From Kiritimatiellia bacterium (lineage in GTDB: Bacteria > Verrucomicrobiota > Kiritimatiellia > RFP12 > UBA3636), in assembly GCA_017457625.1 (NCBI GenBank), contig JAFTHC010000072.1, positions 1-47,695 on the forward strand: a DNA stretch of 47,695 nt, read 5' to 3'. Positions 3,688-19,574 of the stretch are shown here, in pieces. Under the pieces are notes generated by a model that did not search any database, was not told where the DNA came from, and was given only the letters and a program-made list of their open reading frames with translations. Position 1 is the stretch's first letter, and each line of letters begins with the position of its first letter. Made by a program: the position numbers and the translations under genes.

Positions 3688-3740
3688 TCCCTTTCGCCGA
3701 GGCATTTCGGCGGAAAACAACAAACAAAACAAACAAAAAC

Positions 3741-4220
3741 ATGAAAAAGACAAACCTCTCCGCACTCGCCGCCGCGGCCGTTGCGCTCGCGCTCGGCTCG
3801 GGCTGCGCTTCCCAGGGCATCACGTCGGGAGCCGACTACGCCCGATTCCCGAACACCGAAACCGAACGGTACATCCTGAAATACGACGTCAAGCCGACTC
3901 AAGTCTCGACATCGGCACAGGTAACCCGCGCGCTCGGCCTCACGTTCGGCGCGCCCTCCACCGTGATTCTCAACGACCGCGACGCCAAGTCCGGCATTTT
4001 GTTCACGATTTTCGGCAAGGGCATGACGGACGCGAAGAACGCCGCGCTCAACAAGGCTTTGCTCGAGAACAAGTGCGAGGCGATCCTCGGAGCCCGTTAC
4101 CAGATCGACAAGAAGGACTATGTCCTGTTCAGCACCTATGATTGCAAGATCACCGGTTGGCCGGCCACGGCGAAAAGCCTTGACAAGGTGGAAAAACCGG
4201 AATCCAAAGCCAACAAATAA
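3741..4220 (+). CDS. lipoprotein, unknown function
   Basis: Lipobox ALALGSGC. Balanced amino-acid composition. Preceded by an A/C-rich leader aaaacaacaaacaaaacaaacaaaaac (3714-3740). Confidence 0.75.
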   Translation: MKKTNLSALAAAAVALALGSGCASQGITSGADYARFPNTETERYILKYDVKPTQVSTSAQVTRALGLTFGAPSTVILNDRDAKSGILFTIFGKGMTDAKNAALNKALLENKCEAILGARYQIDKKDYVLFSTYDCKITGWPATAKSLDKVEKPESKANK

Positions 4221-4272
4221 CCCCGACCGGAGATCCGGAGCCGGAACGCCCGGCTCCGGATTTCCGCTTTAC

Positions 4273-5436: not shown

Positions 5437-5451
5437 GGAGTCCAGACGCCC

Positions 5452-6168: not shown

Positions 6169-6223
6169 CGCGAGGTCCGTCTCCTTGTTTTCCCTTTTTC
6201 CCGATTCCACCTCCCAACGACCC

Positions 6224-7848: not shown

Positions 7849-9540
7849 ATGCAACTGGTCTGCCCGTCCCTGTCCCTGCGCCGTCCCCTGCCGGACGGCG
7901 GTTCTCCGCTCGTGCTCGGCCGCGCCGAGGACGCCGGGTTGCGCCTGGCCGATCCTGCGGTGTCGCGGCACCACGCGCGGCTCTCGGTTTCGGGCGGCCG
8001 GTGCATCGTGGAAGACCTCGGGAGCCGCGGCGGGACGTTTCTGGGAGGCGTGCGGCTTTCGGGCCCCGCGCCGGCCGGTCCCGGCGACGAGCTTCGGCTC
8101 GGCGGAACGGTTTTCCGATTCGAGGCCGATCCGGGCGCTCCGGCGGCCGCTCCGGCCGTGGCGGGGTCCGCGGCCGGCGGAGACGACGGCCCGCCCGATC
8201 CGCGGGAAGAGGCGCTGAAAGCCCGTTTCGCGGACGCGGCGCTGCTGTGCACGCCGGCGAACATGGCCCTGCAGAAGCGCTTCCGCGACCGGATCGTGGA
8301 GCGCATGGAGCGCTCCGCCCGGAAGGGCGACAAGGTCCTGGCCCGGTGGGAGGACCCGACCTACGGGCCGCGCCTGGAGGCGGCGCTGGACGAAATCCTG
8401 CGGGAATGCCGCCACGAAATCCCGGCGGACGTCCCGGCGGACGCCTTCCGGGCGGCCCTGCGCGACGAAATCGCCGAATACGGCCCGATCAGCCCGCTCC
8501 TGCGCGCGGACGACGTTTCCGAAATCATGGTCAACGGCCCCGGCCGCGTTTTCGCGGAAATCGGCGGTCTCCTGTTCGAGACCGGGGTCCGGTTCTTCGA
8601 CGACTCGCACCTGCTCAACCACATCAAGAACATCGCCGCCTCGGTGGGGCGGCGCGTGGACGACGCGAGCCCGATGGTCGACGCCCGCCTTCCCGACGGA
8701 TCGCGCGTCAACGCCGTCATTCCGCCGCTCGCGCTCGACGGCCCGTCCCTCACGATCCGGAAATTCCCTTCGAAGAAACTCACGGTCGACGATCTCGTCG
8801 CGTTCGGGAGCCTGTCTCCGGGCATGGCGGCGTTTCTGCGGGAGGCGGTTCTCGCGCGCAAGAACGTCGTCGTCTCCGGCGGAACCGGCTCGGGCAAGAC
8901 GACGCTGCTGAACGTGCTCTCGCAGTTCATTCCGCGCGGCGAGCGCGTCGTCACGATCGAAGACTCGGCCGAGCTCAAGCTCTCGCACCGCAACGTCGTC
9001 CGGCTCGAAGCGCGGCCGCCCAACGTCGAAGGAACGGGCCGCGTGACGATCCGCGACCTCGTCGTGAATGCGCTCCGCATGCGGCCGGACCGCATCGTCG
9101 TGGGCGAATGCCGCGGCGCTGAGGCGCTCGACATGCTGCAGGCGATGAACACGGGCCACGACGGTTCTCTCACGACGCTGCACGCCAACACGCCCCGCGA
9201 CGCGCTCTCCCGCCTGGAGAACATGGTGATGATGGCGGGCTTCGACCTCCCGTCGCAGGCCATCCGGGAGCAGATTTCCTCGGCCGTGGACGTCATCGTG
9301 CAGCAGAACCGCCTGCCGGACGGATCGCGCAAGATCGTTTCGATCGAGGAAGTCGGGGCTCCCGAAGGATCGACGATCACGCTCTCCCCCGTGTTCGTCT
9401 TCGAACCAGCCGGCCTGTCGCCGGAGGGCAAGGTCCTCGGCCGGCACGTGCCGACCGGGAACATCCCGCAATTCGTCCACGACCGCAACGCGGCCGGCAC
9501 GCTCCGCATGGACATGTCGGCGTTCGTCGAAACCGCCTGA
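7849..9540 (+). CDS. cpaF: FHA-domain fused to CpaF/TadA secretion ATPase
   Basis: FHA at the N-terminus: LVLGRAEDAGLRLADPAVSRHHARLSV...VEDLGSRGGTFLGG. ATPase motifs are Walker A GGTGSGKT (8878-8901), VVTIEDSAEL and GHDGSLTTLHAN. The first ~400 codons of track ORF 6646..9540 overlap the secretin and were rejected. Confidence 0.9.
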   Translation: MQLVCPSLSLRRPLPDGGSPLVLGRAEDAGLRLADPAVSRHHARLSVSGGRCIVEDLGSRGGTFLGGVRLSGPAPAGPGDELRLGGTVFRFEADPGAPAAAPAVAGSAAGGDDGPPDPREEALKARFADAALLCTPANMALQKRFRDRIVERMERSARKGDKVLARWEDPTYGPRLEAALDEILRECRHEIPADVPADAFRAALRDEIAEYGPISPLLRADDVSEIMVNGPGRVFAEIGGLLFETGVRFFDDSHLLNHIKNIAASVGRRVDDASPMVDARLPDGSRVNAVIPPLALDGPSLTIRKFPSKKLTVDDLVAFGSLSPGMAAFLREAVLARKNVVVSGGTGSGKTTLLNVLSQFIPRGERVVTIEDSAELKLSHRNVVRLEARPPNVEGTGRVTIRDLVVNALRMRPDRIVVGECRGAEALDMLQAMNTGHDGSLTTLHANTPRDALSRLENMVMMAGFDLPSQAIREQISSAVDVIVQQNRLPDGSRKIVSIEEVGAPEGSTITLSPVFVFEPAGLSPEGKVLGRHVPTGNIPQFVHDRNAAGTLRMDMSAFVETA

Positions 9541-9553
9541 AGGAACGCCCGGA

Positions 9554-10408
9554 ATGGATTTCTCCGCCGCCGACGCCGGTCTTCTGCTGCTGGTCTTCGC
9601 CGCCGCGTGCGCGCTGGCCGGCGCCGCGTTCGCCGCGGCGCGGGACCGCGCCGCCGAAAAGGCGCTGGCGGCCCGCGGCGGCGCCGGGGCGGTCCGCGCG
9701 GCGACCCGGGCCGCGGCGGGCGCGTTTTTCGCCGCGGCGCTGGCGACGGCGGGCGCGTCCCTGGCGGGCGCGTCCCTGGCCGGTTCCGCGGTCGCCGCGC
9801 TGGCGGCCGGCGCCGCGGCCGCGGCGGCGCCGGGCCTCTCCGCGCGCCGGCGCGCGGCCCGCGTGGAGTCGGATTTCGAGGCGCAGATCCTCGACCTGGC
9901 CACGGCCCTCTCGAACGGGCTGCGGGCGGGGCTGGCGCCCAACGCGGCGCTTGCGGCGGCGGCGGACCGCCTGCCGGATCCCATGTCCGGCGAACTGGAG
10001 GCCGTCCTGCGCGAGACGCGCCAGGCGGGCGTCCCCCTCCCCGAGGCCCTGGCGCGGCTCTACGGCCGCCACCCCTCCGAAGACCTCGCCCTGCTTGTCG
10101 GTTCCGTGTCGCTCACGCAGCAGACGGGCGGCAGTCTCGCGACGGTCCTCGCGCGGCTCGTCGAAACGATCCGGGAGCGGACCGAGTTCAAGCGGCGGCT
10201 CCGCGCGATGACGGAGCAGAGCCGGTTCGAGGCGGCCGCCATGGCCCTGGCGCCCGTGTTCGTTTTCTTGCTGCTCTTTTTCATCGACCGGCCGCTCATG
10301 TTGCCGCTCGTGACGACCGAGCAGGGCTGGTTCGCGCTGGCGGCCGACGCGGCGATGTCGGCCGTGGGGTTCGCCATCATTTCGAAAATCGGGAAAATCG
10401 AGGTGTAG
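9554..10408 (+). CDS. tadB: TadB-type platform protein (T2SS F family)
   Basis: T2SSF-like core LALLVGSVSLTQQTGGSLATVLARLVETIRERTEFKRRLRAMTEQSRFEA plus terminal TM segments. Very Ala-rich N-terminus. Confidence 0.85.
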   Translation: MDFSAADAGLLLLVFAAACALAGAAFAAARDRAAEKALAARGGAGAVRAATRAAAGAFFAAALATAGASLAGASLAGSAVAALAAGAAAAAAPGLSARRRAARVESDFEAQILDLATALSNGLRAGLAPNAALAAAADRLPDPMSGELEAVLRETRQAGVPLPEALARLYGRHPSEDLALLVGSVSLTQQTGGSLATVLARLVETIRERTEFKRRLRAMTEQSRFEAAAMALAPVFVFLLLFFIDRPLMLPLVTTEQGWFALAADAAMSAVGFAIISKIGKIEV

Positions 10409-10409
10409 G

Positions 10410-11309
10410 ATGGACGAAACGCGGACCACGCTCTCCTGCCTTCTCGTTTTCGCGGCCGTCGTCGGCTCCTATCTGGCCGCCGACGCGCTCGTGAAACTGC
10501 CGCGGCGGTCGTCTTCGCCCCTCTCCGGGGATCCGACCCTTCCGCCGCCGTATCGCCTCCTCCTTCCCCTGGTTCTCTGGGCGGGGCCGGGCATCGGCGC
10601 CCGCCTCGCGGAGGCGGCGCCGCGCCGCGCCGCCGCGCTGCGCTCGACGCTGGCCCTCGCGGGCGTCCGCCTCGGCCCGGAGCACGTGTTCGGCCTGCAG
10701 ACGGTTCTCGCCGCGGCCGGAGCCCTCGCGGGCGTGCTGCTTTTCGTCCTGACCGGCGACGCGGGGACCGGCGCGTTTTTCGCGGTCTTGGCCGCGCTCG
10801 CGGGCTGGATCCAGCCCGGGCTCGACCTGGAAGCGCGCGCGCGGCGGCGGCAGGAGGCGGTCGTGCGCGCCTTGCCGTTCGCCATCGATCTGATCGCCGC
10901 CGCGATGCGGGCCGGCGTCGACTTCGTCTCGGCCGTCCGCCACTACGTGCAGCTCGGCCTGGACAACCCGCTGGCGGCCGAATTCCGCACGCTGCTGCGC
11001 GAGATGACGGAGGCGAACGTCCCCCAGGCCGAGGCGCTGGACCGCATGGCGGCCCGCATCCGGTCGCCCGAGTTCCGCTCGTTCGTCGACGCCGTCGCGC
11101 ACGGGCTCGAGGTCGGCGCCTCGGTCGCGGACACCATGGCGGCGCAGGGCGAGGACCTGCGCCGCGCCCGGTTCGCCCTCGCGGAACGCAAGGCGGCCCG
11201 CGCGCCGAGTCTCATGATCTTCCCGCTGGCGCTGTTCATCCTGCCGGCGGTTTTCATCGTGGTTTTCTTCCCCGTCTGGTTGCGCTGGAAGGCGTCGCAC
11301 GGCGGATAA
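10410..11309 (+). CDS. tadC: TadC-type platform protein (T2SS F family)
   Basis: LPFAIDLIAAAMRAGVDFVSAV ... VDAVAHGLEVGASVADTMAAQGEDLRRARFALAERKAARAPSLMIFPLALFILPAVF. Starts 1 nt after the tadB stop. Confidence 0.85.
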   Translation: MDETRTTLSCLLVFAAVVGSYLAADALVKLPRRSSSPLSGDPTLPPPYRLLLPLVLWAGPGIGARLAEAAPRRAAALRSTLALAGVRLGPEHVFGLQTVLAAAGALAGVLLFVLTGDAGTGAFFAVLAALAGWIQPGLDLEARARRRQEAVVRALPFAIDLIAAAMRAGVDFVSAVRHYVQLGLDNPLAAEFRTLLREMTEANVPQAEALDRMAARIRSPEFRSFVDAVAHGLEVGASVADTMAAQGEDLRRARFALAERKAARAPSLMIFPLALFILPAVFIVVFFPVWLRWKASHGG

Positions 11310-11328: not shown

Positions 11329-12813
11329 ATGTCCGCCTCAATCCGTTTCGTGTCTGGATCGCTCGCCGGGTCGTCGTTCGGCGTCGGGGACGCCGTCGGC
11401 ATCGGCCGGTCGCGCTCGTGCGCGGTGCGGCCGGCCGAGCCGGACGTGTCCGGCCATCACGCCGTCGTCTCCCCCGGGGAAAGCGGACTTCTGCTCGAGG
11501 TTTCCGGCCGGGCCGGCGCCGTCGTAGACGGCCGCGCGGTTTCCCCGGGCGCTTCCGTCGCCCTGGCGCCCGGCGCCCGCGTCCGCCTCGGCTCCTCGCT
11601 GGAGTTCGAAGTCGCGGGCGACGCTCCCGCTGCGGACGAGACCGCGGCGGGCGAGACCGCGGCGGACGAGACCGCGGCGGACGAGACCACGGCGCCGGAC
11701 GTGGATGACGGTGCGGACGAAACGCGCGCGCTGGAAACACAGGCGGCGACGCCTGCCGAGCTGGAGCGTCTCCGGGGCATGCACCAGGCGCGCCGCCGCC
11801 GATCCGTCCTGTTCCGGGTCGCCCTCGTCGCCGCGGCCTTTCTGGCGGCCCTCGGCGTTTCGCTTTGGCGCCAGCGCGCCCCGGAAACCGAACGGCTCCT
11901 GCATCCGCGCGGCGAAAAAGGGGACACCCTGCGGACGAAGGTCGAAATCGACGCGCCCGGACCGGACGTCGCGGAGCCGCCCTTCCTGTTCGTCTACGGC
12001 GCCAATGCGCCCGTATCCCGCTCGACCGACGGCGCCGGCCGCCGCTGGACGACGGTCGGCGGCCGGCTCCGGACGAGCCGCGGCCGGGACGTCGACTTTC
12101 CCGTCCGCGCCTGCGCGTTCGACGATCCGGAGGGTCTCCGCGCGCCGCGGGAAGAGCGCTTCCGCGCGTGGCTCGAAGCGGTCGCCCCCGAACGGAACTG
12201 GACGCTGCTGGGGGAAGAGCCGCCGGCCCGGCTGCGCTTCCTCGGCGGCGAGCGGGGGCTCGGCCCCGGCATTCCCTACCGCCAGTGGCGCTACAAGACC
12301 GGCGAAGGCGGCGTGCAGCGAGACGGCCGCGTCGCCTTCTTCCGGGCCGGCCGGCGCTGCTACGCGGTCTGCTGGGAGCTCGAAAGCTCCGTGTTCGCCC
12401 TGTCCCGGCGCGCCGGCGCGCCCGGCCGGGCGCTCGAAGAGCTGGTCGTCAGCCCGTCTTCGTTCGCGGAAGGCCGGTGGGAAGGCGCGCCGGAGTCGGG
12501 CCTTTCCCCGGACCCGGCCGCGACCGCGCGCTCGCCGTTGGAATGGGAGGAGACGGAAACGCGCCTGCGGGAAGCGCTCGTGGCGGCGGCGCTCGCGGGC
12601 GAACCGACGGCCGGCACGCAGGCGGCCGCTGGGCTCTCCGCCCTGCGCCGGGCCAAGGACGCGGCGTGGAAGGACTTCTGGGCGCGCCGCGTCGAAGCGG
12701 CGCACGATCCGCGCGCGGCCGCGGCCGTCGACGCGGAGGCCGTCGCCGCGTTCCGCGGCTCCGACGACCGCCGGCGCGACCTGCTCCGCGACAAGAACTG
12801 GTGGAAGAAATGA
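11329..12813 (+). CDS. FHA-domain single-pass membrane protein with large C-terminal (predicted periplasmic) domain
   Basis: FHA: VGIGRSRSCAVRPAEPDVSGHHAVVSP. An acidic DETAA repeat is followed by TM VLFRVALVAAAFLAALGVSLW and then ~310 aa with no recognisable family. Confidence 0.8.
   Translation: MSASIRFVSGSLAGSSFGVGDAVGIGRSRSCAVRPAEPDVSGHHAVVSPGESGLLLEVSGRAGAVVDGRAVSPGASVALAPGARVRLGSSLEFEVAGDAPAADETAAGETAADETAADETTAPDVDDGADETRALETQAATPAELERLRGMHQARRRRSVLFRVALVAAAFLAALGVSLWRQRAPETERLLHPRGEKGDTLRTKVEIDAPGPDVAEPPFLFVYGANAPVSRSTDGAGRRWTTVGGRLRTSRGRDVDFPVRACAFDDPEGLRAPREERFRAWLEAVAPERNWTLLGEEPPARLRFLGGERGLGPGIPYRQWRYKTGEGGVQRDGRVAFFRAGRRCYAVCWELESSVFALSRRAGAPGRALEELVVSPSSFAEGRWEGAPESGLSPDPAATARSPLEWEETETRLREALVAAALAGEPTAGTQAAAGLSALRRAKDAAWKDFWARRVEAAHDPRAAAAVDAEAVAAFRGSDDRRRDLLRDKNWWKK
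11635..11694 (+). repeat. in-frame 15-nt tandem repeat x4 (DETAA/GETAA/DETAA/DETTA)
   Basis: The sequence reads gacgagaccgcggcg, ggcgagaccgcggcg, gacgagaccgcggcg, gacgagaccacggcg. It lies between the FHA domain and the TM helix. Confidence 0.9.
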
Positions 12814-15218
12814 GAAAACCGGCTCCCGCGCTCGAACTTTCCAAGGACGGCCGCGTGCTGTTCCGCGCCGACGCCGCCGGTTTTCCCGGGACCCTGACGA
12901 TCGGCCGGAGCCGCGAATGCGACTGGTGCCTGGCCGGCGCCGATCCGTCCGCCAGCGGCCGCCACGCGGAGGTGACCCGGCGGCGGGGTTCGTTTTACGT
13001 CCGCGATCTCGGCAGCCGCAACGGCGTTCTCGCGGACGGCGTCCGCGTCGCCTCGTGCCGGCTCCGGCCCGGCCGCCCCGTCCGGATCGGCGGCTGCGAG
13101 CTGGCCGTCGTGGCGGGCGCCGCCGCCGCCGATTCGCCGGCGTTCCACCGGATCGAGCAGACCGGCGGCCCGGAAGCGGGGCGCGCGTTCGACCTGAAGC
13201 CCGGCCCGGGTCTCGCCGTCGGCTCCGATCCGGCCTGCGACGTGGTCTGCCCCGGGCCGTTCGTCTCCCGGCGGCATCTGCTGTTCCGGCTCGACGAACG
13301 AGGCGATCCGGTCGTCGAATGCACCGGCGCGCGCAACGGCGCGACCGTGAACGGCCTGCCGCTCCTCAAGACCCAGCAGCTCGCGGACGGCGATTCGATC
13401 GTGGCGGCCGACCGGGAGTTCCGCTTCCTGGACAAAAACGTCCCCCACGTCCGCGCCGGTCTGGGGCGCAAGGCCCTCGTGGCCGGCGCGACCCTCCTGC
13501 TCGCCCTCGCCGCGCGCCAGATCTGGCTCGCGGCCCGCCCCGACGCCGGCCGCCTCCTCGACCGGGCGCGCGCCGCCGCCGCCGCCGAATCGTTTTCCGA
13601 GGCGTTCGCGCTCGCGGACGAAGCGGCCGCCGCGCGTCGCGCGCCGGTCTACGAATCCGCGCGCCGCGCCCTTCTGGCCGACCTCTCGCGCTGGACCAAC
13701 GCGATCGTCCGGTGGCGGGGTCCCGGCGACTGCGCCCGGTCGATGCTCCGGGCCCGCCGGTGGAAGGCCGCCCCCGACTACCGCTCCGGCGCGTCCGACT
13801 GGGGGTGGAACACGACGACCTCCCCCGCCATGCAGGCCGAGGAGCGCCGGGCGTTCGACCTGCTCGACGCGTTCAACGGCCCCGGCGCCGGCCGGAACCT
13901 GCTTCGCGACGAGGCCGTCGCGGGCGCCGCGGCCGATCCCGTCCTGCGGGACCGGGCCGCGGCCGCGTTCGAGGCCGCGGCCGACCGGCTCGCGGCGGCG
14001 ACGGCCGCCGTGTGGCGGGCCGCCGCGCCGCCGCCGCCGCCGGACTGGTATCTGCGGCCGCTCGTCGAATCGGCCGCCGCCGTCGAAGACGCTCTCCGCG
14101 CCGCCGCCGCCGCCAACGCCGCGCTCGACGCCCGGTTCGGCGCGCTCCGGCTCCCCGACTGCCTCGCGGCGCCGCCCGACGGCGCAGCCCGGCTCGCGCG
14201 GGATCTGGCCGCGCTCGCCTCGCAGGACGCGCAAGCGCGCGAACGCGCCGAAGAGGACCGCCGGACCGGCCGGTATCCGGTCCTGCGCCGCAGCCGCCTG
14301 CTCGCCGACCGGATCGAGGCGGCCGGGCCGGTCGTCGGCCGCCTCGTCGCGGCCGAGGCCGTTTTCGCGTCCAATCTCGCCGCGGTCGCGCGTTGCGACG
14401 GCGCGGCGTTCGCGCCGGCGCTTCCGCTGCCGGACGAGGACGACGCGCGCGCCGTCCATCCGGCGCTGGCCGGCTACGCCGCTTCGCTCGCCTCGCTGCA
14501 AGCCGACCTCGACGGCTTCCGCGTCGAATGGGATTCCGCCGCCGGCCAGCTCGCGCGCTGGGACCTGGATCCGGCCCGGCCGGCGATCCCCGGCGACATG
14601 GCGTTCCTGTTTTCGCTGGAAAAACTCCCCGCCGCGCCGCCGCGCGGCGCGCCGCTTCCGCCGGCGGGCGCCGCCGCGCCCGCCGATCCCTACGACTTCG
14701 CGGTCGGGGCCCGGGACTTCCGGGATTTCCTGGACCCCTCGATCAAGACCCGGTTCGAAACGGCGGCGACCGCCTACGTGCGCGGGTCCAAGCTGGAATC
14801 GTCCTGGAGCGGACCCGTGCCGCCGGAGCTCGCGCGGCTCGGCGTGTCGTTCGCCATGCCGCTCGTGCGGCGGACGGCCAACCGGCTCCGCGTCCTGCGC
14901 GCCGCCGCCGCCGCGCTCGACGGGACGCCCGCCCGCGATCCCCGCGGCCTGCACGCGCTCGTCCGGACCGTCCCCGACGCGCCGGGCCGCCCGAATCTGG
15001 CCGCCGGGGCGCTGCGCCTGCACGGGCTCGTGTCCGCGGCCGCGGACAAGTGGCGGCAGGGGCCGCTCTCGGCCGCCGCCGCGCCCGCCGGGCGCGACGC
15101 CGCGCTCGCCGAGGCCGTCCGCGCCCTGCTGTTTCCGCCCGCCAAGGCCGCGGAGCGCGCCGCCGCCGCGGCCCGCATCGCCGAAAAACTCGCGGCCGAC
15201 CGGGAGGAGGCGCCGTGA
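12810..15218 (+). CDS. double-FHA single-pass membrane protein with ~570 aa Ala-rich C-terminal domain
   Basis: FHA1: TIGRSRECDWCLAGADPSASGRHAEVTRRRGSFYVRDLGSRNGVLADG. FHA2: LAVGSDPACDVVCPGPFVSRRHLLFRL...GARNGATVNG. TM: ALVAGATLLLALAARQIWLAA. ATGA overlap with the previous gene. Confidence 0.8.
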   Translation: MRKPAPALELSKDGRVLFRADAAGFPGTLTIGRSRECDWCLAGADPSASGRHAEVTRRRGSFYVRDLGSRNGVLADGVRVASCRLRPGRPVRIGGCELAVVAGAAAADSPAFHRIEQTGGPEAGRAFDLKPGPGLAVGSDPACDVVCPGPFVSRRHLLFRLDERGDPVVECTGARNGATVNGLPLLKTQQLADGDSIVAADREFRFLDKNVPHVRAGLGRKALVAGATLLLALAARQIWLAARPDAGRLLDRARAAAAAESFSEAFALADEAAAARRAPVYESARRALLADLSRWTNAIVRWRGPGDCARSMLRARRWKAAPDYRSGASDWGWNTTTSPAMQAEERRAFDLLDAFNGPGAGRNLLRDEAVAGAAADPVLRDRAAAAFEAAADRLAAATAAVWRAAAPPPPPDWYLRPLVESAAAVEDALRAAAAANAALDARFGALRLPDCLAAPPDGAARLARDLAALASQDAQARERAEEDRRTGRYPVLRRSRLLADRIEAAGPVVGRLVAAEAVFASNLAAVARCDGAAFAPALPLPDEDDARAVHPALAGYAASLASLQADLDGFRVEWDSAAGQLARWDLDPARPAIPGDMAFLFSLEKLPAAPPRGAPLPPAGAAAPADPYDFAVGARDFRDFLDPSIKTRFETAATAYVRGSKLESSWSGPVPPELARLGVSFAMPLVRRTANRLRVLRAAAAALDGTPARDPRGLHALVRTVPDAPGRPNLAAGALRLHGLVSAAADKWRQGPLSAAAAPAGRDAALAEAVRALLFPPAKAAERAAAAARIAEKLAADREEAP

Positions 15219-15397
15219 ACGACCGCGGATCGGTGCTCCTGGAATACGTCGTGCTCTGCTGCTTCGTCGGCACCGCGCTCATCCTGTTCATGCATGCGAA
15301 TTTCTACAACCCCGTCGACGGGTTCGTCGGCCTCGGCCGCGATCTCGTCGCGTTCTACCAACGCTTCCAGACCCTGCTGGCCCGCCCCGTCCCGTGA
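15215..15397 (+). CDS. small Flp/TadE-type prepilin-like protein (60 aa)
   Basis: GTG start in a GTGA overlap. VNDRG-SVLLEYVVLCCFVGTALILF matches the Flp G/xxxxEY processing motif followed by a hydrophobic helix. Confidence 0.55.
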   Translation: MNDRGSVLLEYVVLCCFVGTALILFMHANFYNPVDGFVGLGRDLVAFYQRFQTLLARPVP

Positions 15398-15410
15398 TTC
15401 CCGTTGTGAG

Positions 15411-15449
15411 AAACCCAACCCAACAAACAACCCAACCAAAGGAACAACC
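15411..15449 (+). promoter_or_regulatory. A/C-rich unstructured leader upstream of the flp pilin gene
   Basis: aaacccaacccaacaaacaacccaaccaaaggaacaacc is nearly G-free in a high-GC background and contains the only weak SD-like aagga. A similar tract precedes the lipoprotein gene at 3741. Confidence 0.35.
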
Positions 15450-15782
15450 ATGAAATTCAGGAAAACGCGCCTCGTCCGCACGCTCTGCCGCCTCTTCGGC
15501 GAAGAGAAAGGCCAGGCCATGATGGAATACGTCGTGCTCGCGGTCCTCATCGTCGCCGCCGCCGTCTTCGCCGTCGTCAAGTTCGGCGGAGCGATCGTCC
15601 GCCAGTTCGGCGTGGCCGAAAAAGGCGCCGTCGGAAACGAAGCGGGCGCCGTCGAACTCCAACAACAGAGCCAGGATACGGCCAATACGGACGTCACGCA
15701 AGGGCAAAACGCCAACGCAGCCTACAGCACGCTCTCGGAAGGCGGCGGCGAAGGCGGCGAAGGCGAAGGCTCTTCCGACTGA
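15450..15782 (+). CDS. flp: Flp-family pilin with extended acidic/Gly C-terminal tail
   Basis: GEEKG-QAMMEYVVLAVLIVAAAVFAVV matches G/xxxxEY plus a hydrophobic helix. The 110 aa length is long for Flp. Tail: SEGGGEGGEGEGSSD. Confidence 0.8.
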   Translation: MKFRKTRLVRTLCRLFGEEKGQAMMEYVVLAVLIVAAAVFAVVKFGGAIVRQFGVAEKGAVGNEAGAVELQQQSQDTANTDVTQGQNANAAYSTLSEGGGEGGEGEGSSD

Positions 15783-15796: not shown

Positions 15797-16333
15797 GTGT
15801 CCCCGCTTCCCCTCGCCTTTTTCGCCGCGTGGCTCCTCGCGCTCTGCGTCTGCGATCTGCGCGCCCGCCGGCTGCCCAACGCGCTCACGCTGGGCGGCGC
15901 GGCGGTCGCGCTCGCCGCGCGGCTGGGCGCGGGGTGGCCGTCGGCCGCGCCGTTTCTGGACGGTCTGGCCGGCGGCGCGCTCGCGGCGCTGCTGCTGCTG
16001 CTGCCGTTTCTCGTCCGGGCGGCGGGCGCGGGGGACGTGAAGATGCTCTTCGCGGCCGGGTGCGCGCTCGGCCGCGGCCGGGCGGCGGGCTTTCTGCTGT
16101 TCGTTTCGCTCGCGGGGCTCGCGCTCGGACTCGTCTGGTTCCTGTCCGCCCGGTTCGACCGGCGGCGGATCCGGCATCTGGCGCGGACGCTCTTCGATCC
16201 GCGCTACGACCGCGCGGCCGGACGCGCGGCGCTGCCGCCGAAATCGGCGGAGGCGTGCCGCGTCCCGTTCGGCCTGGCCATCGCCGCCGGCGCGGCGCTC
16301 GAGCTGGCGCTGGAACCGGGAGGCGCCGCGTGA
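15797..16333 (+). CDS. cpaA: A24-family prepilin peptidase, CpaA/TadV type (no methyltransferase domain)
   Basis: Polytopic membrane protein with the two Asp motifs LCVCDLRARRLPN and AAGAGDVKMLFAAG. GTG start. Confidence 0.85.
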   Translation: MSPLPLAFFAAWLLALCVCDLRARRLPNALTLGGAAVALAARLGAGWPSAAPFLDGLAGGALAALLLLLPFLVRAAGAGDVKMLFAAGCALGRGRAAGFLLFVSLAGLALGLVWFLSARFDRRRIRHLARTLFDPRYDRAAGRAALPPKSAEACRVPFGLAIAAGAALELALEPGGAA

Positions 16334-16944
16334 AGAGGGACGGAACCGTCCTCATGGAGGCCGTGCTCTGCCTGCCGCTGCTCGTCGCGCTGTGCATGGG
16401 CGTGGTGGAGTTCACGCGCCTCTGGCAGGCGCGGTTCCTCGCGTTCCTCGCGGCCGACCACGCGGCGCGGGCGGCGCTCGTCCACAACCCGGCCGACTAT
16501 GCGGACGAAACGGGCGCGTTTCTCGAACGGGACGGCGTCGCCTGGGCGGCCGCCGTGGAAACGCTCGCCCCGCTCGCGCAACGCAGCGGCCTCGGGGCCG
16601 GCCTTTTTCCGGACCGGGCCCTCGCCGCGACCCGGACGCGCATCGTGCCGGAGAAGTCCGCCGAACGCGACGAAACCGTCGCGGTCACGGTCGAGTTCCT
16701 CGTGCCGCACCTGCTCGCGCCCGTGATTCCGCTTTCGGACGGACGCCCCGCCCCTTGGACGCTCTTTTCGCCCGCGGCCGTCACCGAAACCTGCGTCCTG
16801 CCCAAGCCGTGGTCGACGGAAGGTTTCCCGCGGCTTTCCGGCGCGGAACGCGACGTCCTGGTTCCGGTTCCGCCGGCCGCGCCGGAAGAGAGCGCCGACG
16901 ACGGTGCCGGGGAAGAATCCGGAGAAACGGAGGCGGCGTCGTGA
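16330..16944 (+). CDS. tadE: TadE-like pseudopilin
   Basis: GTGA overlap start. KRDG-TVLMEAVLCLPLLVALCMGVVEF matches the TadE N-terminal motif. Confidence 0.75.
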   Translation: MKRDGTVLMEAVLCLPLLVALCMGVVEFTRLWQARFLAFLAADHAARAALVHNPADYADETGAFLERDGVAWAAAVETLAPLAQRSGLGAGLFPDRALAATRTRIVPEKSAERDETVAVTVEFLVPHLLAPVIPLSDGRPAPWTLFSPAAVTETCVLPKPWSTEGFPRLSGAERDVLVPVPPAAPEESADDGAGEESGETEAAS

Positions 16945-19574
16945 GCCTCGCGCGCCCGTTTCTCGGCTCGATCCGGCGTCTTGCGCGCGACGAAAACGGC
17001 GCGGCTCTCGCGTTCACGCTCGGCGCCGTACTCTTCCTCTACGTGTTCTGCGGCGGCGCCTACATGGCCGGCGAAACGATCCGCCGCAAGGCCGAACTGC
17101 AGAACGCCTGCGACGCGGCCGCCTACTCCGCGTCCGTCGTCCAGGCCGACGTCCTTTCACGCATGGCCGTCCTCAACCGCGCCATGTCCTGGTCCTACGT
17201 CCAGATGACGCGCGCCCAGATGGACGCCATCGTCTACCGCTGGCTCGACCTGACGCGGTGGCGCTTCCGGCAGGACCTCGCGGGCATCGGGCACAGGGAC
17301 TTCGTTTCGTCGCTTTTTGCCGGCAAGAACGCCGGATATTCGCACATCGGCCACACGCCGATCGGATGTAATTTTGGCGTCGGCGGCATCGGCTGCCGCG
17401 AAGGTCTTCACGACGACAAGGATTACGGCTTTTCCCACTACATCGGCATGGGTCCGCGCAAGGACGAACTGTTCCGGGTCCGCGTCGGCTACCGCGCCGG
17501 CACGTATCTGGTCTGGAACGGGAGCGGCGACTTCGACTACGAGGTCGACGGCGAAACCATCGCGCGCGGCGTGATCGGGCAGCTGGAGAAAGGCGGCGGC
17601 GGCGAGGGCGTTCCCGGCATCGCGTCCGTCGTGGCCGCGAACCGCCTGGCCGTGTCCCTGTGCAACGGGATGCTCGCCTGGGAAAACCGGCAGATGGGTC
17701 CGGCGATCCAGGAAACGGCGCGGCTCGCGCTGCTTCTCAACCTGCCGCGCGACGCGAACGGCGACGTGCCGGCCGGCCTCGCGGACGACTACGCGGCGGT
17801 CATCGTGCCGGGCGTTTCGCCCGCGCCGCCCGAGTACCGGGATGCCGACGCGGACGCGGACGGCGCCGTCGCGTCCGGCTACTTCCGCGCACTGCACAAC
17901 ACGGAAGAAGACGAACTGCGGTTTCTCGCGATGGCGGACGGCGTTCCGCCGGAGCGCGCCGGGGACCTGCGCCTCGTGGACTACTTTTCGCCGTCGTCGG
18001 GGAACGGGGGGCGGCGCCTTGCGGGCGGTCTCGACCAGTGGTTCGTCCGGTGCGCCGTCGACGAACCGGAACAAGACCGGCTGGACGTCGTCCGGAAATG
18101 GTCCGCCCCCGCCCCCTACATCGCCCGCGGCTACAAAAACGCCAATTACGGCGAAGGCGCCAGCGCCGGCTCCCTCGCGCAGAAGGCGACGGGGCTCGGC
18201 GTCGACATCCACCGGGGCAACTACGTCTTCGACGGAACGGACGTTGCCGGCTTGATCGGCGCAATCGGGAAAAACGGATTTCCCAAGCTCTCCAAATTCC
18301 TTGCAGACAAACCTTCCTCCCCATGGAAGAAGGCATTTTGGCGCGCAGCCCGATTATTGATGCAGAAAATCGACGATGCGGTTTCGCCCTTCCGGAGCGT
18401 TGCCGATTCCTGGCGCAAAGCGGTCCTCAACGTTGTCGGCCGAATCGCTTCGACGGACGTGGAACCATCCTGCATCAACGTCCGGTCGCGTTTTCCCGAC
18501 CAGTGCGAAACGCCGAATGAAACCTACGGGCTCGTGTCCGAATACGAGTGGGCGACGGCGAACTGGATCTGCTGCTGGCTCAACGTCAAATACTGCAAGT
18601 TCTGCATCCACGTCCCGCTCCCCATCGCGGCCATCCACGGCGGCGCGGCCGGCGACGGCTACGGGTCGTCCGGGCAGCCGCTTTCATGGCTCGGGGAAGA
18701 GATCAAGGCGATCAAGAAAGGCGGCGGCCATTCCCGGAGCGCCTACCGCTCCACGTTCATCGGATTGGACGGCGAATTTCCGACGGCGTGCGGCCATCCC
18801 GGCGGCGTGAACGGCCGGGGCGCCAACATGCTTCTCAAGGGCTACGTCCGGATCTACGGCGACGACCGCCGTCTCCTCGTGCCGGCGGCCCGGGACCTCT
18901 ACGTCGGCGAACCGGCCAAACCGTGGATTCTCGGCGACGAATACTTCGCCGGCGGCGGCACGACCGTCGTGGGCCTGGCGCGCAAGACCCGCAACGTCTT
19001 CGAGACGTTTCTCGGACCGATCGCCCCGCCCGGGCTCTACGGCGCCTTCGAGCCGGACACGAACGCCGCGCCCCGCCTCGTCGCCTTCTCCGCCGCGCGG
19101 GCCGGATACGCGCGGCGGACCGGGGACGGACTGGCGGACGGAGCCGATTCCGTCAACGCGGGCAACCCGCCTTCGCCGCGCTGGGAAACCGTCGCGGGAC
19201 ACGAGGCGGACGGGCCCGCCCCGCGTCTGCCCGACGGCATGAACGCGGCGCTCCGCGCCCGTCTGGCCGCCGCGCGCATCGGCTGCGTGTGCGGCCCTGC
19301 CTCGGCCGCCGCGCTGCGGCACGGCTGGAACCTCTCGCAGACCGACTGGAACGGCCAGCTTCTCCCCCTGCGCCACGCCTTCGCCGGAACGGACGACGCC
19401 GGCGACTGGGAATGGGACGACGGCGCCGCCCTGCGGCGGCTTCTCGAGCGCCTCGTCTCGGCCGACGCCGTCTGGAAAAGCCTCGGCGAGGGCGACGGCG
19501 GCTCCCTGGAAAGCATCCTCGGAACGAATCCCGACACCGTTTTCAACCTTCTCCTGAAACGCCGAATCCTCTAG
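16941..19574 (+). CDS. tadG: large TadG-like pilus-associated protein (877 aa)
   Basis: GTGA overlap start. N-terminus ARDENGAALAFTLGAVLFLYVFCGGAYMAGETIRRKAELQNACDAAAYSASV resembles the TadG/Tad N-terminal domain. Cys cluster: CINVRSRFPDQCE...WICCWLNVKYCKFCIH. Confidence 0.75.
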   Translation: MSLARPFLGSIRRLARDENGAALAFTLGAVLFLYVFCGGAYMAGETIRRKAELQNACDAAAYSASVVQADVLSRMAVLNRAMSWSYVQMTRAQMDAIVYRWLDLTRWRFRQDLAGIGHRDFVSSLFAGKNAGYSHIGHTPIGCNFGVGGIGCREGLHDDKDYGFSHYIGMGPRKDELFRVRVGYRAGTYLVWNGSGDFDYEVDGETIARGVIGQLEKGGGGEGVPGIASVVAANRLAVSLCNGMLAWENRQMGPAIQETARLALLLNLPRDANGDVPAGLADDYAAVIVPGVSPAPPEYRDADADADGAVASGYFRALHNTEEDELRFLAMADGVPPERAGDLRLVDYFSPSSGNGGRRLAGGLDQWFVRCAVDEPEQDRLDVVRKWSAPAPYIARGYKNANYGEGASAGSLAQKATGLGVDIHRGNYVFDGTDVAGLIGAIGKNGFPKLSKFLADKPSSPWKKAFWRAARLLMQKIDDAVSPFRSVADSWRKAVLNVVGRIASTDVEPSCINVRSRFPDQCETPNETYGLVSEYEWATANWICCWLNVKYCKFCIHVPLPIAAIHGGAAGDGYGSSGQPLSWLGEEIKAIKKGGGHSRSAYRSTFIGLDGEFPTACGHPGGVNGRGANMLLKGYVRIYGDDRRLLVPAARDLYVGEPAKPWILGDEYFAGGGTTVVGLARKTRNVFETFLGPIAPPGLYGAFEPDTNAAPRLVAFSAARAGYARRTGDGLADGADSVNAGNPPSPRWETVAGHEADGPAPRLPDGMNAALRARLAAARIGCVCGPASAAALRHGWNLSQTDWNGQLLPLRHAFAGTDDAGDWEWDDGAALRRLLERLVSADAVWKSLGEGDGGSLESILGTNPDTVFNLLLKRRIL

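What the first reader, a model, noticed from the sequence alone, without database searches (positions are those of the whole stretch)
11329..15218. Two single-pass membrane proteins with one and two cytoplasmic FHA domains sit where TadZ/TadD-type accessory genes normally are
Seen: gene 11329 has one FHA domain, a DETAA x4 acidic repeat, a TM helix and ~310 aa of unknown sequence. Gene 12810 has two tandem FHA domains (about 12880-13420), a TM helix (about 13470-13530) and ~570 aa of Ala/Arg-rich, apparently helical sequence. The two genes overlap by ATGA and lie directly after tadC and before the pilin genes.

Inference: they are transmembrane adaptors that couple phosphorylation status in the cytoplasm to the periplasmic part of the machine, or the reverse. 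The predicted periplasmic domains match nothing I recognise.
Basis: partly seen in the sequence, partly recalled or inferred. Interest (0 to 1): 0.65.

Follow-up and report, generated by a model that had tools for sequence, protein, structure and literature searches.

The report
Membrane FHA protein pair in Tad-like pilus locus
Two real, conserved but unnamed membrane proteins with phosphothreonine-reading (FHA) domains are a fixed part of a pilus machine in gut and rumen Kiritimatiellae, where they probably link a nearby protein kinase and phosphatase to pilus assembly.

Summary
P1 (11329-12813) has one FHA domain, an xETAA x4 repeat, one TM helix and a 311-aa C-domain. P2 (12810-15218) has two FHA domains, one TM helix and a 560-aa all-helical C-domain. 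The genes overlap by ATGA and lie between tadC and two Flp pilin genes.

Both C-terminal regions are real coding sequence (GC3 about 0.9; dN/dS 0.10-0.43 against an 80% relative). Each defines a small unnamed family: about 10-25 clusters among 1.84 billion representatives, with no Pfam, NCBIfam or PDB sequence match.

In at least 10 loci, those with an organism label being Kiritimatiellae, the order TadB-TadC-P1-P2 is fixed. Wherever the motor gene is on the contig it is an FHA-CpaF, and no TadZ is present. A PP2C phosphatase and a receptor Ser/Thr kinase recur in this locus type.

One Victivallales relative carries the pair (P1 without its C-domain) inside a type VI secretion cluster.

Best reading: bitopic phosphothreonine adaptors, analogous to T6SS PpkA/PppA/Fha and architecturally like SctD/CdsD and GltG. 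This is inferred and untested. I rate it a new variant of a known kind, of moderate interest.

The parts
11329..12813 (+). P1 gene (494 aa): FHA, Thr/acid-rich linker, juxtamembrane motif, TM, 311-aa C-domain
   Evidence: GC3 0.88. Pfam FHA 31.3 bits. dN/dS 0.19 against L001. Family alignment A3. AF2 mean pLDDT 75.
11401..11592 (+). P1 FHA domain (aa 25-88)
   Evidence: Pfam. G26-R27-S28, S41 and H44 are invariant in 9 members; the 'NG' Asn is variable. Top Foldseek hits are FHA domains such as DgcB and GarA, TMt 0.8.
11627..11694 (+). 15-nt tandem repeat x4.5 encoding xETAA x4, within the disordered Thr-rich linker (aa 99-130)
   Evidence: TRF score 115, 92% matches. Across the family the linker is 32-162 aa with 6-20% Thr (10-20% in 8 of 9 members) against 3-7% elsewhere. 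pLDDT is below 50. Copy number differs in the 80% relative.
11719..11760 (+). Conserved juxtamembrane motif ETRALETQAATPAE with invariant T132, T137 and E144; candidate phospho-acceptor and FHA-docking site
   Evidence: These columns are invariant in 9 members. Position T132+3 is always L/F/I/M. A weakly aligned counterpart is also present in the T6SS-linked P1N-like protein of L007. Phosphorylation is inferred, not shown.
11806..11874 (+). P1 transmembrane helix (aa 160-182)
   Evidence: Hydropathy 2.25. Conserved in all members. K/R count is 57 on the N side against 26 on the C side.
11878..12810 (+). P1 C-domain (aa 184-494), predicted periplasmic: beta-rich part (aa 190-360) plus helical part (aa 403-487)
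   Evidence: dN/dS 0.10-0.20. No Pfam, NCBIfam or PDB sequence hit. 8 remote relatives in the exhaustive search. Weak hits to the PsbP/DcrB/MTC28/EagT6 fold, E about 2e-3.
12810..15218 (+). P2 gene (802 aa): FHA1, FHA2, TM, 560-aa all-alpha C-domain; ATGA overlap with P1 and GTGA overlap with the first Flp gene
   Evidence: GC3 0.92. Pfam FHA 103.2 bits and Yop-YscD_cpl 58.6 bits. dN/dS 0.30. Alignment A4. AF2 mean pLDDT 79.
12897..13091 (+). P2 FHA1 (aa 30-94), canonical
   Evidence: G32-R33, S49, H52, S69, N71 and G72 are invariant in 12 members.
13167..13427 (+). P2 FHA2 (aa about 120-206), degenerate: the phosphate-binding Arg is replaced
   Evidence: Position 139 is S/T/C/N and never R in 12 members. 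S153, H156 and N176 are kept. Best Pfam stretch for Yop-YscD_cpl.
13473..13535 (+). P2 transmembrane helix (aa 222-242)
   Evidence: Hydropathy 1.70 in the window protein and 1.55-2.48 in 18 homologues. K/R count 64:44. AF2 helix 214-242.
13536..15215 (+). P2 C-domain (aa 243-802), predicted periplasmic, made of long helices; invariant W295, W302, W318, W331, Y628-D629, W748
   Evidence: dN/dS 0.26-0.43. pLDDT is mostly 85-95 for aa 250-600. All 50 listed Foldseek matches (of 164 with E<=10) are FHA-type domains; none covers the C-domain. The profile hits only designed antiparallel coiled coils in PDB. No Pfam family, apart from a weak TPR hit in 1 of 12 members.
5452..6168 (+). CpaB/RcpC-like (SAF domain)
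   Evidence: Pfam SAF 34.8 bits. Syntenic in relatives.
6185..7831 (+). Secretin (divergent)
   Evidence: Weak Pfam Secretin hit, E 1e-3. Homologues in L083, L085 and L089 are annotated Secretin.
7849..9540 (+). FHA-CpaF motor ATPase (563 aa)
   Evidence: Pfam FHA 55 bits and T2SSE 216.8 bits. Start read from the translation. 55-61% identical in relatives, with the FHA region included.
9554..11309 (+). TadB-like (9554-10408) and TadC-like (10410-11309) platform proteins
   Evidence: Pfam T2SSF.
15215..15782 (+). Two Flp-type pilin genes (15215-15397, 60 aa; 15450-15782, about 110 aa)
   Evidence: G|SVLLEY and G|QAMMEY motifs, conserved in L001, L083 and L085. Weak Flp_Fap hit.
15797..19574 (+). 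Prepilin peptidase (15797-16333), TadE (16315-16944) and an 880-aa TadG-like minor pilin (16932-19574)
   Evidence: Pfam Peptidase_A24, TadE and Tad.
25156..26220 (+). Second CpaF-like ATPase without an FHA domain
   Evidence: Pfam T2SSE 181 bits. Start. Dozens of metagenome loci at 64-94% identity among the 80 kept.
27295..28182 (+). PP2C-type Ser/Thr phosphatase
   Evidence: Pfam PP2C_2 and SpoIIE. Recurs with the locus.
28179..30857 (+). Receptor-type Ser/Thr kinase: N-terminal kinase-like region, kinase domain, TM, Pro-rich repeats, extracytoplasmic tail; ATGA overlap with the PP2C gene
   Evidence: Pfam Pkinase 187 bits, 2 stretches. TM at aa about 626-648 and xPEP repeats. Overlap. Recurs with the locus.

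Best explanation
P1 and P2 are two genuine, co-translated inner-membrane proteins. Each crosses the membrane once, with its FHA domain(s) in the cytoplasm and its C-domain in the periplasm. They are fixed accessory subunits of a Tad-like (type IVc) pilus machine typical of Kiritimatiellae. This machine has an FHA-bearing CpaF motor and no TadZ.

The most likely mechanism is a threonine-phosphorylation switch of the kind known from type VI secretion (PpkA/PppA/Fha). The locus-encoded receptor Ser/Thr kinase phosphorylates threonines in P1's disordered cytoplasmic linker and juxtamembrane motif (invariant T132 and T137). The resulting phosphothreonines are read by the canonical FHA domains of P2 (FHA1), P1 and/or CpaF. 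This would cluster the pair at the TadB/TadC platform and recruit or license the motor. The PP2C phosphatase resets the switch.

The periplasmic domains (a PsbP-like plus helical domain in P1, a long all-helical domain in P2) would anchor the pair to the periplasmic part of the machine (CpaB or the secretin) or to the envelope.

Shown here: the genes are real and under constraint; their architecture; the conservation of residues; the synteny; the recurrence of kinase and phosphatase.

Inferred only: the topology, who phosphorylates whom, which FHA binds what, and any contact in the periplasm.
For: Real and constrained: GC3 about 0.9. dN/dS is 0.19 for P1 and 0.30 for P2 against an 80% relative, with the C-domains at 0.10-0.43.

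FHA assignments pass Pfam cut-offs and the fold search. The phosphate-contacting Arg and Ser/His are invariant in the P1 FHA and in P2 FHA1.

A single conserved TM segment with positive-inside bias is present in 28 family members.

P1's linker is disordered and variable in length, but Thr-enriched (10-20% against 3-7% elsewhere) in 8 of 9 members and at 6% in the ninth. It carries two invariant Thr, the first always followed by a hydrophobic residue at +3, the classic FHA ligand pattern.

TadB-TadC-P1-P2 is fixed in the window and in L001/2, L003, L004/5, L006, L083/4, L085/6 and L089. The P1-P2 pair is also seen on the shorter contigs L087 and L090, and a T2SSF gene precedes P1 in L086. Base composition in these loci ranges from 49% to 74% GC. 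The 4-nt overlaps P1/P2 and P2/Flp1 are mostly kept.

FHA-CpaF is present in 8 of 8 loci that include the motor gene.

No TadZ-type P-loop occurs in the window, and no ParA/CbiA family appears in the Pfam lists of L083, L085 or L089.

PP2C and a membrane-spanning Ser/Thr kinase lie in the same-strand array, coupled by an ATGA overlap. Homologues lie within 10 kb of the conserved second ATPase in about 18 of 32 long metagenome loci, and 9 of those also show Tad genes. PP2C lies directly upstream of cpaB in L004/5.

A P2-family gene preceded by a P1-like FHA-TM gene sits inside a T6SS cluster, between tssM and tssA, in a Victivallales MAG. T6SS is the class of machine where FHA/kinase/phosphatase gating is established.
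Against: Nothing here shows phosphorylation or binding.

P2 FHA2 lacks the key Arg in all members, and the P1 FHA lacks the conserved Asn. Both proteins match the T3SS SctD cytoplasmic-domain profile, whose FHA fold is not known to read phosphothreonine. A phospho-independent scaffold role is therefore possible.

Kinase and phosphatase genes were not seen within 10 kb of P1/P2 in L083 or L085, nor near the T6SS-linked pair in L007. Linkage is frequent but not universal in the DNA I hold.

Topology rests on hydropathy and charge bias only. The window's own P2 TM is marginal (H=1.70, with an internal Arg).

The AF2 models rest on shallow alignments of 9 and 12 sequences.
Confidence: 0.5

Rival explanations
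1. P1 and P2 are purely structural subunits of an assembly platform or alignment complex. They would play the role of GspL/GspM or PilN/PilO (bitopic pairs that tie the cytoplasmic ATPase to the periplasmic ring), or of SctD in type III secretion. Their FHA folds would serve as phosphorylation-independent protein-binding modules that dock the motor.
For: Two adjacent, overlapping genes for bitopic proteins lie right after the platform genes in every locus. Both match Yop-YscD_cpl; P2 scores above its cut-off. FHA2 lacks the Arg in all members. TadZ is absent, so something else must position the motor. Kinase genes were not seen near some loci.
Against: The Arg/Ser/His set is invariant in P2 FHA1 and the P1 FHA across proteins that are only 24-36% identical. 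This is hard to explain without phosphate binding. The conserved Thr-rich linker and invariant Thr add to that, as does the recurring PP2C and kinase. The periplasmic folds are neither ferredoxin-like (GspL/M, PilN/O) nor ring-building motifs.
Confidence: 0.25
2. The signal runs the other way. The periplasmic domains act as sensors of envelope contact or damage, and the FHA domains recruit or activate cytoplasmic partners. The pair would be an input device, like TagQRST upstream of PpkA in Pseudomonas T6SS, and not a docking site downstream of the kinase.
For: The same P2 family is used with two unrelated machines, Tad and T6SS. That argues against a machine-specific periplasmic contact. P1's C-domain resembles a fold common in extracytoplasmic binding or sensor proteins (PsbP, DcrB, MTC28).
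Against: The locus kinase has its own extracytoplasmic domain and could sense directly. P1's periplasmic domain is dispensable in the T6SS-linked version. There is no ligand-binding signature.
Confidence: 0.15
3. The locus is a Kil-type contact-dependent killing apparatus, and P1 and P2 are the orthologues of the uncharacterised Myxococcus FHA proteins MXAN_4649 and MXAN_4648 that flank kilH and kilG. This is a rival as to classification and is compatible with the mechanisms above.
For: The Kil system has an FHA-KilF motor and several FHA genes, two of them directly next to the platform genes, one described as PrgH-like and one as FHA plus TPR (PMC8460266, supplementary file 1). The window also has a giant TadG-like minor pilin and a lipase-like gene downstream.
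Against: Full-length relatives of P2 were found only in Kiritimatiellae and Victivallales among 185,579 species genomes; the Myxococcota hits were FHA-only and not next to Tad genes. The exhaustive search with the C-domains gave only 22 hits, and every one I could place maps to Kiritimatiellae-type loci. I could not obtain the Myxococcus sequences, so direct homology is untested.
Confidence: 0.15
4. The long C-terminal regions are frame artefacts of a very GC-rich sequence.
For: The window has 72-76% GC here, with many long spurious ORFs on both strands.
Against: GC3 is about 0.9 in frame. dN/dS is 0.10-0.43. Homologues with the same architecture occur in genomes of 49-54% GC that are not Ala-rich. 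The AF2 models are confident.
Confidence: 0.01

Closest known systems
T6SS threonine-phosphorylation pathway (PpkA kinase, PppA PP2C phosphatase, Fha1/TagH FHA protein)
   Same: An FHA protein, a membrane receptor Ser/Thr kinase and a PP2C phosphatase are encoded together with an envelope-spanning machine. A P2-family member lies inside a T6SS cluster. P2 gives a sub-threshold hit to TIGR03354 TagH.
   Different: Fha1 and TagH are not bitopic proteins with large periplasmic domains (established knowledge). The machine here is a Tad-like pilus. The TagH model scores 53 bits against a cut-off of 120.
SctD (YscD/PrgH/EscD) and chlamydial CdsD (CT664) of type III secretion
   Same: The domain grammar is cytoplasmic FHA fold(s), one TM helix, then a periplasmic domain. 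P2 passes the Pfam Yop-YscD_cpl cut-off (58.6 against 33.2). Foldseek hits include CT664 and YscD FHA domains. From my own knowledge, not checked here: CdsD has extra FHA domains and is a kinase substrate in another PVC phylum.
   Different: The periplasmic parts are not ring-building alpha/beta motifs. There are no T3SS genes in the locus. P1 is below the profile's cut-off (19.8 bits).
Myxococcus xanthus Kil system FHA proteins (KilD, MXAN_4648, MXAN_4649) and FHA-KilF
   Same: It is a Tad-like machine with an FHA-fused motor and several FHA genes, two of them adjacent to the TadB/TadC homologues. Their function is acknowledged as unknown (PMC8460266, PMC10433427, PMC12428579).
   Different: KilD is described as cytoplasmic FHA plus TPR. 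The Kil genes are split over two clusters. No C-domain homology was detected and the phylum is different. Direct comparison was not possible.
GltG of the Myxococcus Agl-Glt gliding machine
   Same: Two FHA domains, then a TM helix, then a long periplasmic extension, in a trans-envelope machine (PMC11761067). The L007 relative gives a weak NF033760 hit.
   Different: GltG ends in a TonB-C-like domain and pairs with a TolQR-like motor. The score is 36 bits against a cut-off of 650.
Class III (FHA-bearing) CpaF/TadA motors
   Same: The window's CpaF has the N-terminal FHA domain described for class III CpaF (PMC12019362; Pfam).
   Different: That paper places class III mostly in Betaproteobacteria and names no partner proteins. 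Here the FHA motor always comes with P1 and P2 (8 of 8 loci).
GspL/GspM (T2SS) and PilM/PilN/PilO (T4aP) assembly-platform proteins; TadZ/CpaE and TadD of canonical Tad loci
   Same: Functional analogy only: small bitopic or peripheral proteins that tie the motor and platform to the periplasmic parts or position the machine. P1 and P2 occupy the post-tadC slot, and TadZ is missing.
   Different: There is no ParA/MinD P-loop, no lipobox and no consistent TPR. The folds differ.

Membership tests
FHA domain (PF00498) | Profile score above Pfam's gathering cut-off (20.7 bits) | tested here: met
   P1 scores 31.3 bits. P2 scores 103.2 bits with two stretches. All 9 P1-family and all 12 P2-family members match.
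FHA domain (PF00498) | Beta-sandwich FHA fold | tested here: met
   Top Foldseek PDB hits are FHA domains: TMt 0.8-0.9, rmsd 1.5-3 A.
FHA domain (PF00498) | Phosphothreonine-contacting residues (GR Arg, SxxH Ser/His, NG Asn) | tested here: inconclusive
   P2 FHA1 keeps all of them, invariant. The P1 FHA keeps Arg, Ser and His but its Asn is variable. P2 FHA2 has S/T/C/N in place of the Arg in 12 of 12 members.
FHA domain (PF00498) | Binding of phosphothreonine peptides | not testable with these tools
   Needs ITC or peptide arrays.
SctD / YscD / PrgH (T3SS inner-membrane ring) | N-terminal cytoplasmic domain matching PF16697 above the cut-off (33.2 bits) | tested here: inconclusive
   P2 scores 58.6 bits (met). 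P1 scores 19.8 bits (not met).
SctD / YscD / PrgH (T3SS inner-membrane ring) | Periplasmic ring-building alpha/beta motifs | tested here: not met
   P2's C-domain is all-alpha. P1's C-domain is PsbP-like plus helices. No SctD periplasmic hits.
SctD / YscD / PrgH (T3SS inner-membrane ring) | Encoded within a T3SS gene cluster | tested here: not met
   The neighbours are Tad genes.
T6SS TagH/Fha (TIGR03354) | NCBIfam score above the cut-off (120.25 bits) | tested here: not met
   P2 scores 53.3 bits. The L007 relative scores 80.2 bits.
T6SS TagH/Fha (TIGR03354) | Encoded in a T6SS cluster with a PpkA-type kinase and a PppA-type phosphatase | tested here: inconclusive
   The window has a kinase and PP2C but a Tad machine. 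The L007 relative is in a T6SS cluster, but no kinase or PP2C was seen within 10 kb.
TadZ / CpaE | ParA/MinD-type ATPase with the deviant Walker A motif KGGxGK[ST] | tested here: not met
   The motif is absent from all six frames of the window, and neither P1 nor P2 hits a ParA/CbiA family.
TadD (pilotin) | Lipoprotein signal and TPR repeats | tested here: not met
   No lipobox: the N-termini are FHA domains. A weak TPR hit occurs in only 1 of 12 P2 members.
Kil-system FHA proteins (KilD, MXAN_4648, MXAN_4649) | Sequence homology beyond the FHA domain | not tested
   The Myxococcus sequences could not be fetched with the scans left. Indirectly, no Myxococcota locus among 80 genome hits had C-domain similarity or adjacent Tad genes.
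Kil-system FHA proteins (KilD, MXAN_4648, MXAN_4649) | Adjacency to TadB/TadC homologues in a Tad-like system with an FHA-fused motor | tested here: met
   compared with PMC8460266 supplementary file 1.
GltG (NF033760) | NCBIfam score above the cut-off (650 bits) and a TonB-C-like C-terminus | tested here: not met
   The L007 relative scores 36 bits. The window's P2 gives no hit. There is no TonB-like fold hit.

The most novel reading that the evidence does not exclude
P1 and P2 form a portable, machine-agnostic phospho-switch module. It would be a bitopic FHA pair that plugs a receptor Ser/Thr kinase and PP2C phosphatase into different envelope-spanning nanomachines of PVC bacteria: a Tad-like pilus in Kiritimatiellae and a T6SS in Victivallales. 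It would take over the motor-positioning role that TadZ has elsewhere. The 560-aa all-helical P2 C-domain would be a previously unseen periplasmic scaffold fold.
Probability: 0.3. Interest if true: 0.75.

Novelty: new variant of a known kind. Interest (0 to 1): 0.55.

Why it matters
FHA-domain proteins are conspicuous in Tad-like killing and invasion machines of predatory bacteria. Reviews as recent as 2025 still list their role as unknown.

This locus type shows the same theme in an unrelated, largely uncultured phylum that is common in rumen and human-gut metagenomes. One P1 cluster alone has 173 member sequences.

The locus comes as a complete, compact parts list: an FHA motor, two membrane FHA adaptors, a kinase, a phosphatase and a second ATPase.

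It gives concrete, testable sites:
- P1 T132 and T137, and the Thr-rich repeat;
- Arg/Ser of three FHA domains;
- a naturally degenerate fourth FHA domain.

It also defines two unannotated protein families whose C-domains have no Pfam model and no solved structure.

The T6SS-embedded relative suggests that one adaptor design is reused across machines.

Tried and rejected
1. Word-index homologue searches with full-length P1 and P2 each returned only the query and one relative at about 80% identity. The 8000-candidate limit was reached in both searches, probably filled by Ala-rich and FHA words. I replaced them with an exhaustive search of the two C-domains joined together.

2. PDB sequence searches with the C-domains found nothing, apart from one chance hit at E 0.7. 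A profile of the P2 C-domain hit only designed antiparallel coiled coils, which I treat as generic heptad similarity and not as homology.

3. Pfam and NCBIfam scans of all family members found no family for either C-domain.

4. I asked whether FHA genes that follow tadC in Brocadiia (L032, L071) and Acidobacteria (L027) belong to the P1 or P2 families. HMMs of the C-domains found nothing there. They are analogous, not homologous.

5. The Myxococcota, Polyangiaceae and Nannocystis loci from the genome scan are FHA-only matches and are not next to Tad platform genes. They could not serve as Kil comparators.

6. I suspected that the gene upstream of the T6SS-linked pair in L007 (7887-8924) was TagF. 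No Pfam or NCBIfam hit supported this, so I dropped the idea.

7. I considered the GC jump (about 60% at the window's ends, 70-76% in the middle) as a sign of a foreign island. GC3 stays high in the flank genes and the difference lies in GC1 and GC2, so it reflects protein composition. I make no transfer claim.

Full report
**1. The observation**

The window is very GC-rich in this region (72-76%) and is full of long spurious ORFs. I therefore first asked which frames are coding.

Third-position GC is about 0.9 in the frames of ORF 11329-12813 (P1, 494 aa) and ORF 12810-15218 (P2, 802 aa), along their whole lengths. The P1 stop and the P2 start overlap as ATGA at 12810-12813.

Pfam confirms one FHA domain in P1 (aa 25-88, 31.3 bits against a cut-off of 20.7). 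It confirms two in P2 (aa 30-94 and about 120-206, 103.2 bits). P2 also passes the cut-off of the T3SS SctD cytoplasmic-domain model, Yop-YscD_cpl.

The acidic repeat is a 15-nt tandem repeat of 4.5 copies at 11627-11694.

Each protein has one hydrophobic segment: P1 aa 160-182 and P2 aa 222-242.

The upstream genes are CpaB, a divergent secretin, an FHA-CpaF motor (7849-9540), TadB and TadC.

The downstream genes are two Flp-type pilins with G|xxxxEY motifs, a prepilin peptidase, TadE and an 880-aa TadG-like protein.

The only quibble is that the slot after tadC is normally TadD's, whereas TadZ precedes the ATPase gene.

**2. Are the C-terminal regions real?**

Yes. The closest relatives (P0004 and P0002, 78-80% identical, on metagenome contigs L001 and L002) keep the same gene order.

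Against L001, dN/dS is 0.19 for P1 and 0.30 for P2. The C-terminal segments range from 0.10 to 0.43, comparable with the FHA domains.

An exhaustive HMMER search of 1.84 billion representatives, using the two C-domains joined together, found only 22 proteins at E<=1e-3. They fall into two groups. One has 494-619 aa and matches the P1 C-domain at its C-terminus. The other has about 800-890 aa and matches the P2 C-domain from residue about 250.

These proteins have the same architectures as P1 and P2, and several are Lys/Glu-rich, not Ala-rich. The families are therefore not a by-product of GC content.

The alignments (A3 and A4) show invariant Trp, Tyr and Asp positions spread through the C-domains.

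**3. Distribution and context**

A scan of 185,579 species genomes with the P2 alignment found full-length relatives only in four Kiritimatiellae MAGs from rumen, deer gut and human gut (L003-L006) and one Victivallales MAG (L007). All other hits were FHA-only.

In the Kiritimatiellae loci the order is conserved: CpaB, secretin, FHA-CpaF, TadB, TadC, P1, P2, Flp, Flp, peptidase, TadE, giant TadG and onward. P1 and P2 are only 23-35% identical there, against 56-61% for CpaF.

Further loci repeat the arrangement in genomes with as little as 49% GC. These were reached through the third homologue search and through context look-ups. Most keep the 4-nt overlaps P1/P2 and P2/Flp1.

In L089 the pilin genes are elsewhere, but TadB-TadC-P1-P2 stays intact. 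The pair therefore tracks the platform genes and not the pilins.

Wherever the motor gene is on the contig it carries the FHA domain (8 of 8 loci).

No TadZ-type P-loop exists in any frame of the window. No ParA-family hit appears in the precomputed Pfam lists of L083, L085 or L089.

The only name I found for a member in public sources is 'FHA domain-containing protein [Kiritimatiellae bacterium]'.

**4. Kinase and phosphatase**

The same-strand array continues to a radical SAM gene, a second FHA-less CpaF-like ATPase (25156-26220), a PP2C phosphatase (27295-28182) and a 900-aa Ser/Thr kinase (28179-30857).

The phosphatase stop and the kinase start overlap as ATGA.

The kinase has a kinase-like N-terminal region, a bona fide kinase domain, a TM segment, a Pro-rich repeat and a short extracytoplasmic tail. 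It is therefore a receptor kinase.

To test whether this linkage is chance, I anchored a metagenome scan on the second ATPase. Among 32 loci of at least 9 kb, about 18 have kinase and/or PP2C homologues within 10 kb, and 11 show Tad genes of this locus type. Nine show both, often as PP2C-ATPase2-kinase directly after the TadG-like gene.

PP2C also lies just upstream of cpaB in L004 and L005.

The linkage is not seen in every stored locus, for example L083 and L085 within 10 kb.

**5. Residue-level reading**

The P1 FHA keeps Gly-Arg-Ser and Ser-x-x-His invariantly, but its 'NG' Asn varies.

P2 FHA1 keeps the complete canonical set in all 12 members.

P2 FHA2 never has the Arg (it is S/T/C/N) but keeps Ser, His and Asn. 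The system thus carries three apparently competent phosphothreonine readers (including CpaF's, read) and one degenerate FHA.

P1's linker between the FHA domain and the TM helix is predicted disordered. It ranges from 32 to 162 aa across the family and contains 6-20% Thr (10-20% in 8 of the 9 members), against 3-7% in the rest of each protein. 'ET' units recur in it.

The linker ends in a conserved motif with invariant T132, T137 and E144. The residue three positions after T132 is always Leu, Phe, Ile or Met. From general knowledge of FHA specificity, pT-x-x-hydrophobic is a typical ligand. Phosphorylation of these sites is my inference.

**6. Structure**

AF2 with the family alignments gives mean pLDDT 75 for P1 and 79 for P2.

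P1 consists of an FHA domain, a disordered linker, one long helix through the membrane, a beta-rich domain (aa 190-360) and a helical bundle (aa 403-487).

In Foldseek against PDB, the FHA domain dominates. The beta-rich domain gives weak (E about 2e-3) but recurrent hits to the PsbP/Mog1-like fold: PsbP, DcrB, MTC28, EagT6/SciW and PA94. Most of these proteins are extracytoplasmic.

P2 consists of two FHA domains, a TM helix and about 560 aa of long helices, with pLDDT mostly 85-95 over aa 250-600. All 50 listed Foldseek matches (of 164 with E<=10) are FHA-type domains, among them CT664/CdsD, YscD and EssC, so none of the best matches covers the C-domain.

Positive-inside counts support N-in/C-out topology: 57:26 for P1 and 64:44 for P2. 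This topology is inferred, not shown.

**7. The type VI secretion relative**

In the Victivallales MAG the P2-family gene (L007 9953-12121) lies between tssM and tssA, in a cluster with tssK, tssL, tssC, tagJ and tssF.

The gene before it (8964-9974) matches the P1 profile over the FHA domain (E 1e-18) and, weakly (9 bits), over the juxtamembrane segment. It ends right after its TM helix, with no periplasmic domain.

The pair is thus reused with a different machine, and that machine is the one where FHA/kinase/phosphatase gating is textbook knowledge. This is a single locus.

**8. Mechanism, rivals and comparison with known systems**

Taken together, the best-supported reading is this. P1 and P2 are bitopic phosphothreonine adaptors that connect the locus kinase and phosphatase to the TadB/TadC platform and the FHA-CpaF motor, in a system that lacks TadZ.

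The main rival is a phosphorylation-independent scaffold of the GspL/M or SctD type. The degenerate FHA2 and the SctD-profile match favour it.

A sensor-first variant and a 'Kil orthologue' classification remain open.

By architecture the closest known proteins are SctD/CdsD and GltG. By logic the closest is the T6SS PpkA/PppA/Fha pathway. By context it is the Myxococcus Kil system, whose own FHA proteins are still unexplained. FHA-bearing CpaF itself is already described as 'class III'.

P1 and P2 fail the membership tests for SctD (periplasmic motifs, T3SS context), TagH, GltG, TadZ and TadD. Homology to the Kil FHA proteins could not be tested.

**9. Verdict**

The feature is real, conserved and unannotated. 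It is a new variant of a known kind (FHA accessory proteins of envelope machines) with two novel C-terminal domains. It is of moderate interest. It is not categorically new, and its mechanism rests on inference.

Noticed in passing
window 25156-26220: A second CpaF-like ATPase without an FHA domain. It is by far the most conserved gene of the array: dozens of metagenome loci at 64-94% identity among the 80 kept. It usually sits between a PP2C gene and a Ser/Thr kinase gene. Tad systems are generally described as single-ATPase machines.
   Followed up: partly
window 27295-30857: The PP2C stop and the kinase start overlap as ATGA (28179-28182). The kinase has an extra N-terminal kinase-like region, one TM helix (aa about 626-648), a long run of (A/E/T/V)PEP-type Pro-rich repeats and a C-terminal extracytoplasmic stretch of about 110 aa with no family match.
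   Followed up: partly
L007 1805-19393: A Victivallales MAG carries a T6SS cluster (tssK, tssL, tssM, tssA, tssC, tagJ, tssF). Between tssM and tssA lie a P2-family gene and a tail-anchored P1-like FHA gene. The 345-aa gene just upstream (7887-8924) has no family hit.
   Followed up: partly
window 16932-19574: An 880-aa protein has only an N-terminal TadG-like (Tad) motif. It is conserved in all related loci (870-895 aa) and recalls the large tip pilin KilN of Myxococcus.
   Followed up: no
window 20629-22692: A 687-aa Mbeg1-like / class-3-lipase-like protein lies downstream of the pilin genes. Weakly similar genes occupy the same position in L004, L005 and L095, and larger unannotated genes (991-1256 aa) do so in L083 and L085. 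It could be an effector or cargo.
   Followed up: no
window 23898-25139: A radical SAM gene lies directly before the second ATPase. It is 86-92% identical in L093 and L095. Its role in a pilus locus is unexplained.
   Followed up: no
window 15100-15218 (P2 C-terminus): The window's P2 and its 80% relative lack the last 45 or so profile positions (a conserved 'lPG..aW..GGGR' tail) that all other family members have. In both, the stop still overlaps the first Flp gene.
   Followed up: partly
window 15294-15782: The mechanical ORF is over-extended. Comparison with relatives puts the start of the second Flp pilin at the Met at 15450 (MKFRKT...).
   Followed up: yes
window 4120-5436: A 438-aa protein with no family hit lies directly upstream of cpaB. 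It contains a lipobox-like LAGC sequence at about aa 76-79 and could be the pilotin-type accessory of this system. No homologue was seen in the related loci.
   Followed up: no
window 39629-47695: A separate type II secretion or type IV pilus-like cluster: a two-domain GspF/PilC-type platform protein followed by at least three genes with N-terminal methylation motifs. GC is lower here (about 62-63%).
   Followed up: no
window 1-6000 and 40000-47695 versus 6000-40000: GC is 59-64% at both ends and 68-76% in the middle. GC3 stays high (0.83-0.95) in flank genes, and the difference lies in codon positions 1 and 2. It therefore reflects protein composition and is not obviously foreign DNA.
   Followed up: partly
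L027 672-1356; L032 5-4759; L071 6570-11499: In an Acidobacteria contig and in two Brocadiia MAG loci, an FHA gene also follows tadC (after CpaF and TadB in the Brocadiia loci), but without P1- or P2-type C-domains. FHA genes after the Tad platform genes may have arisen more than once.
   Followed up: partly
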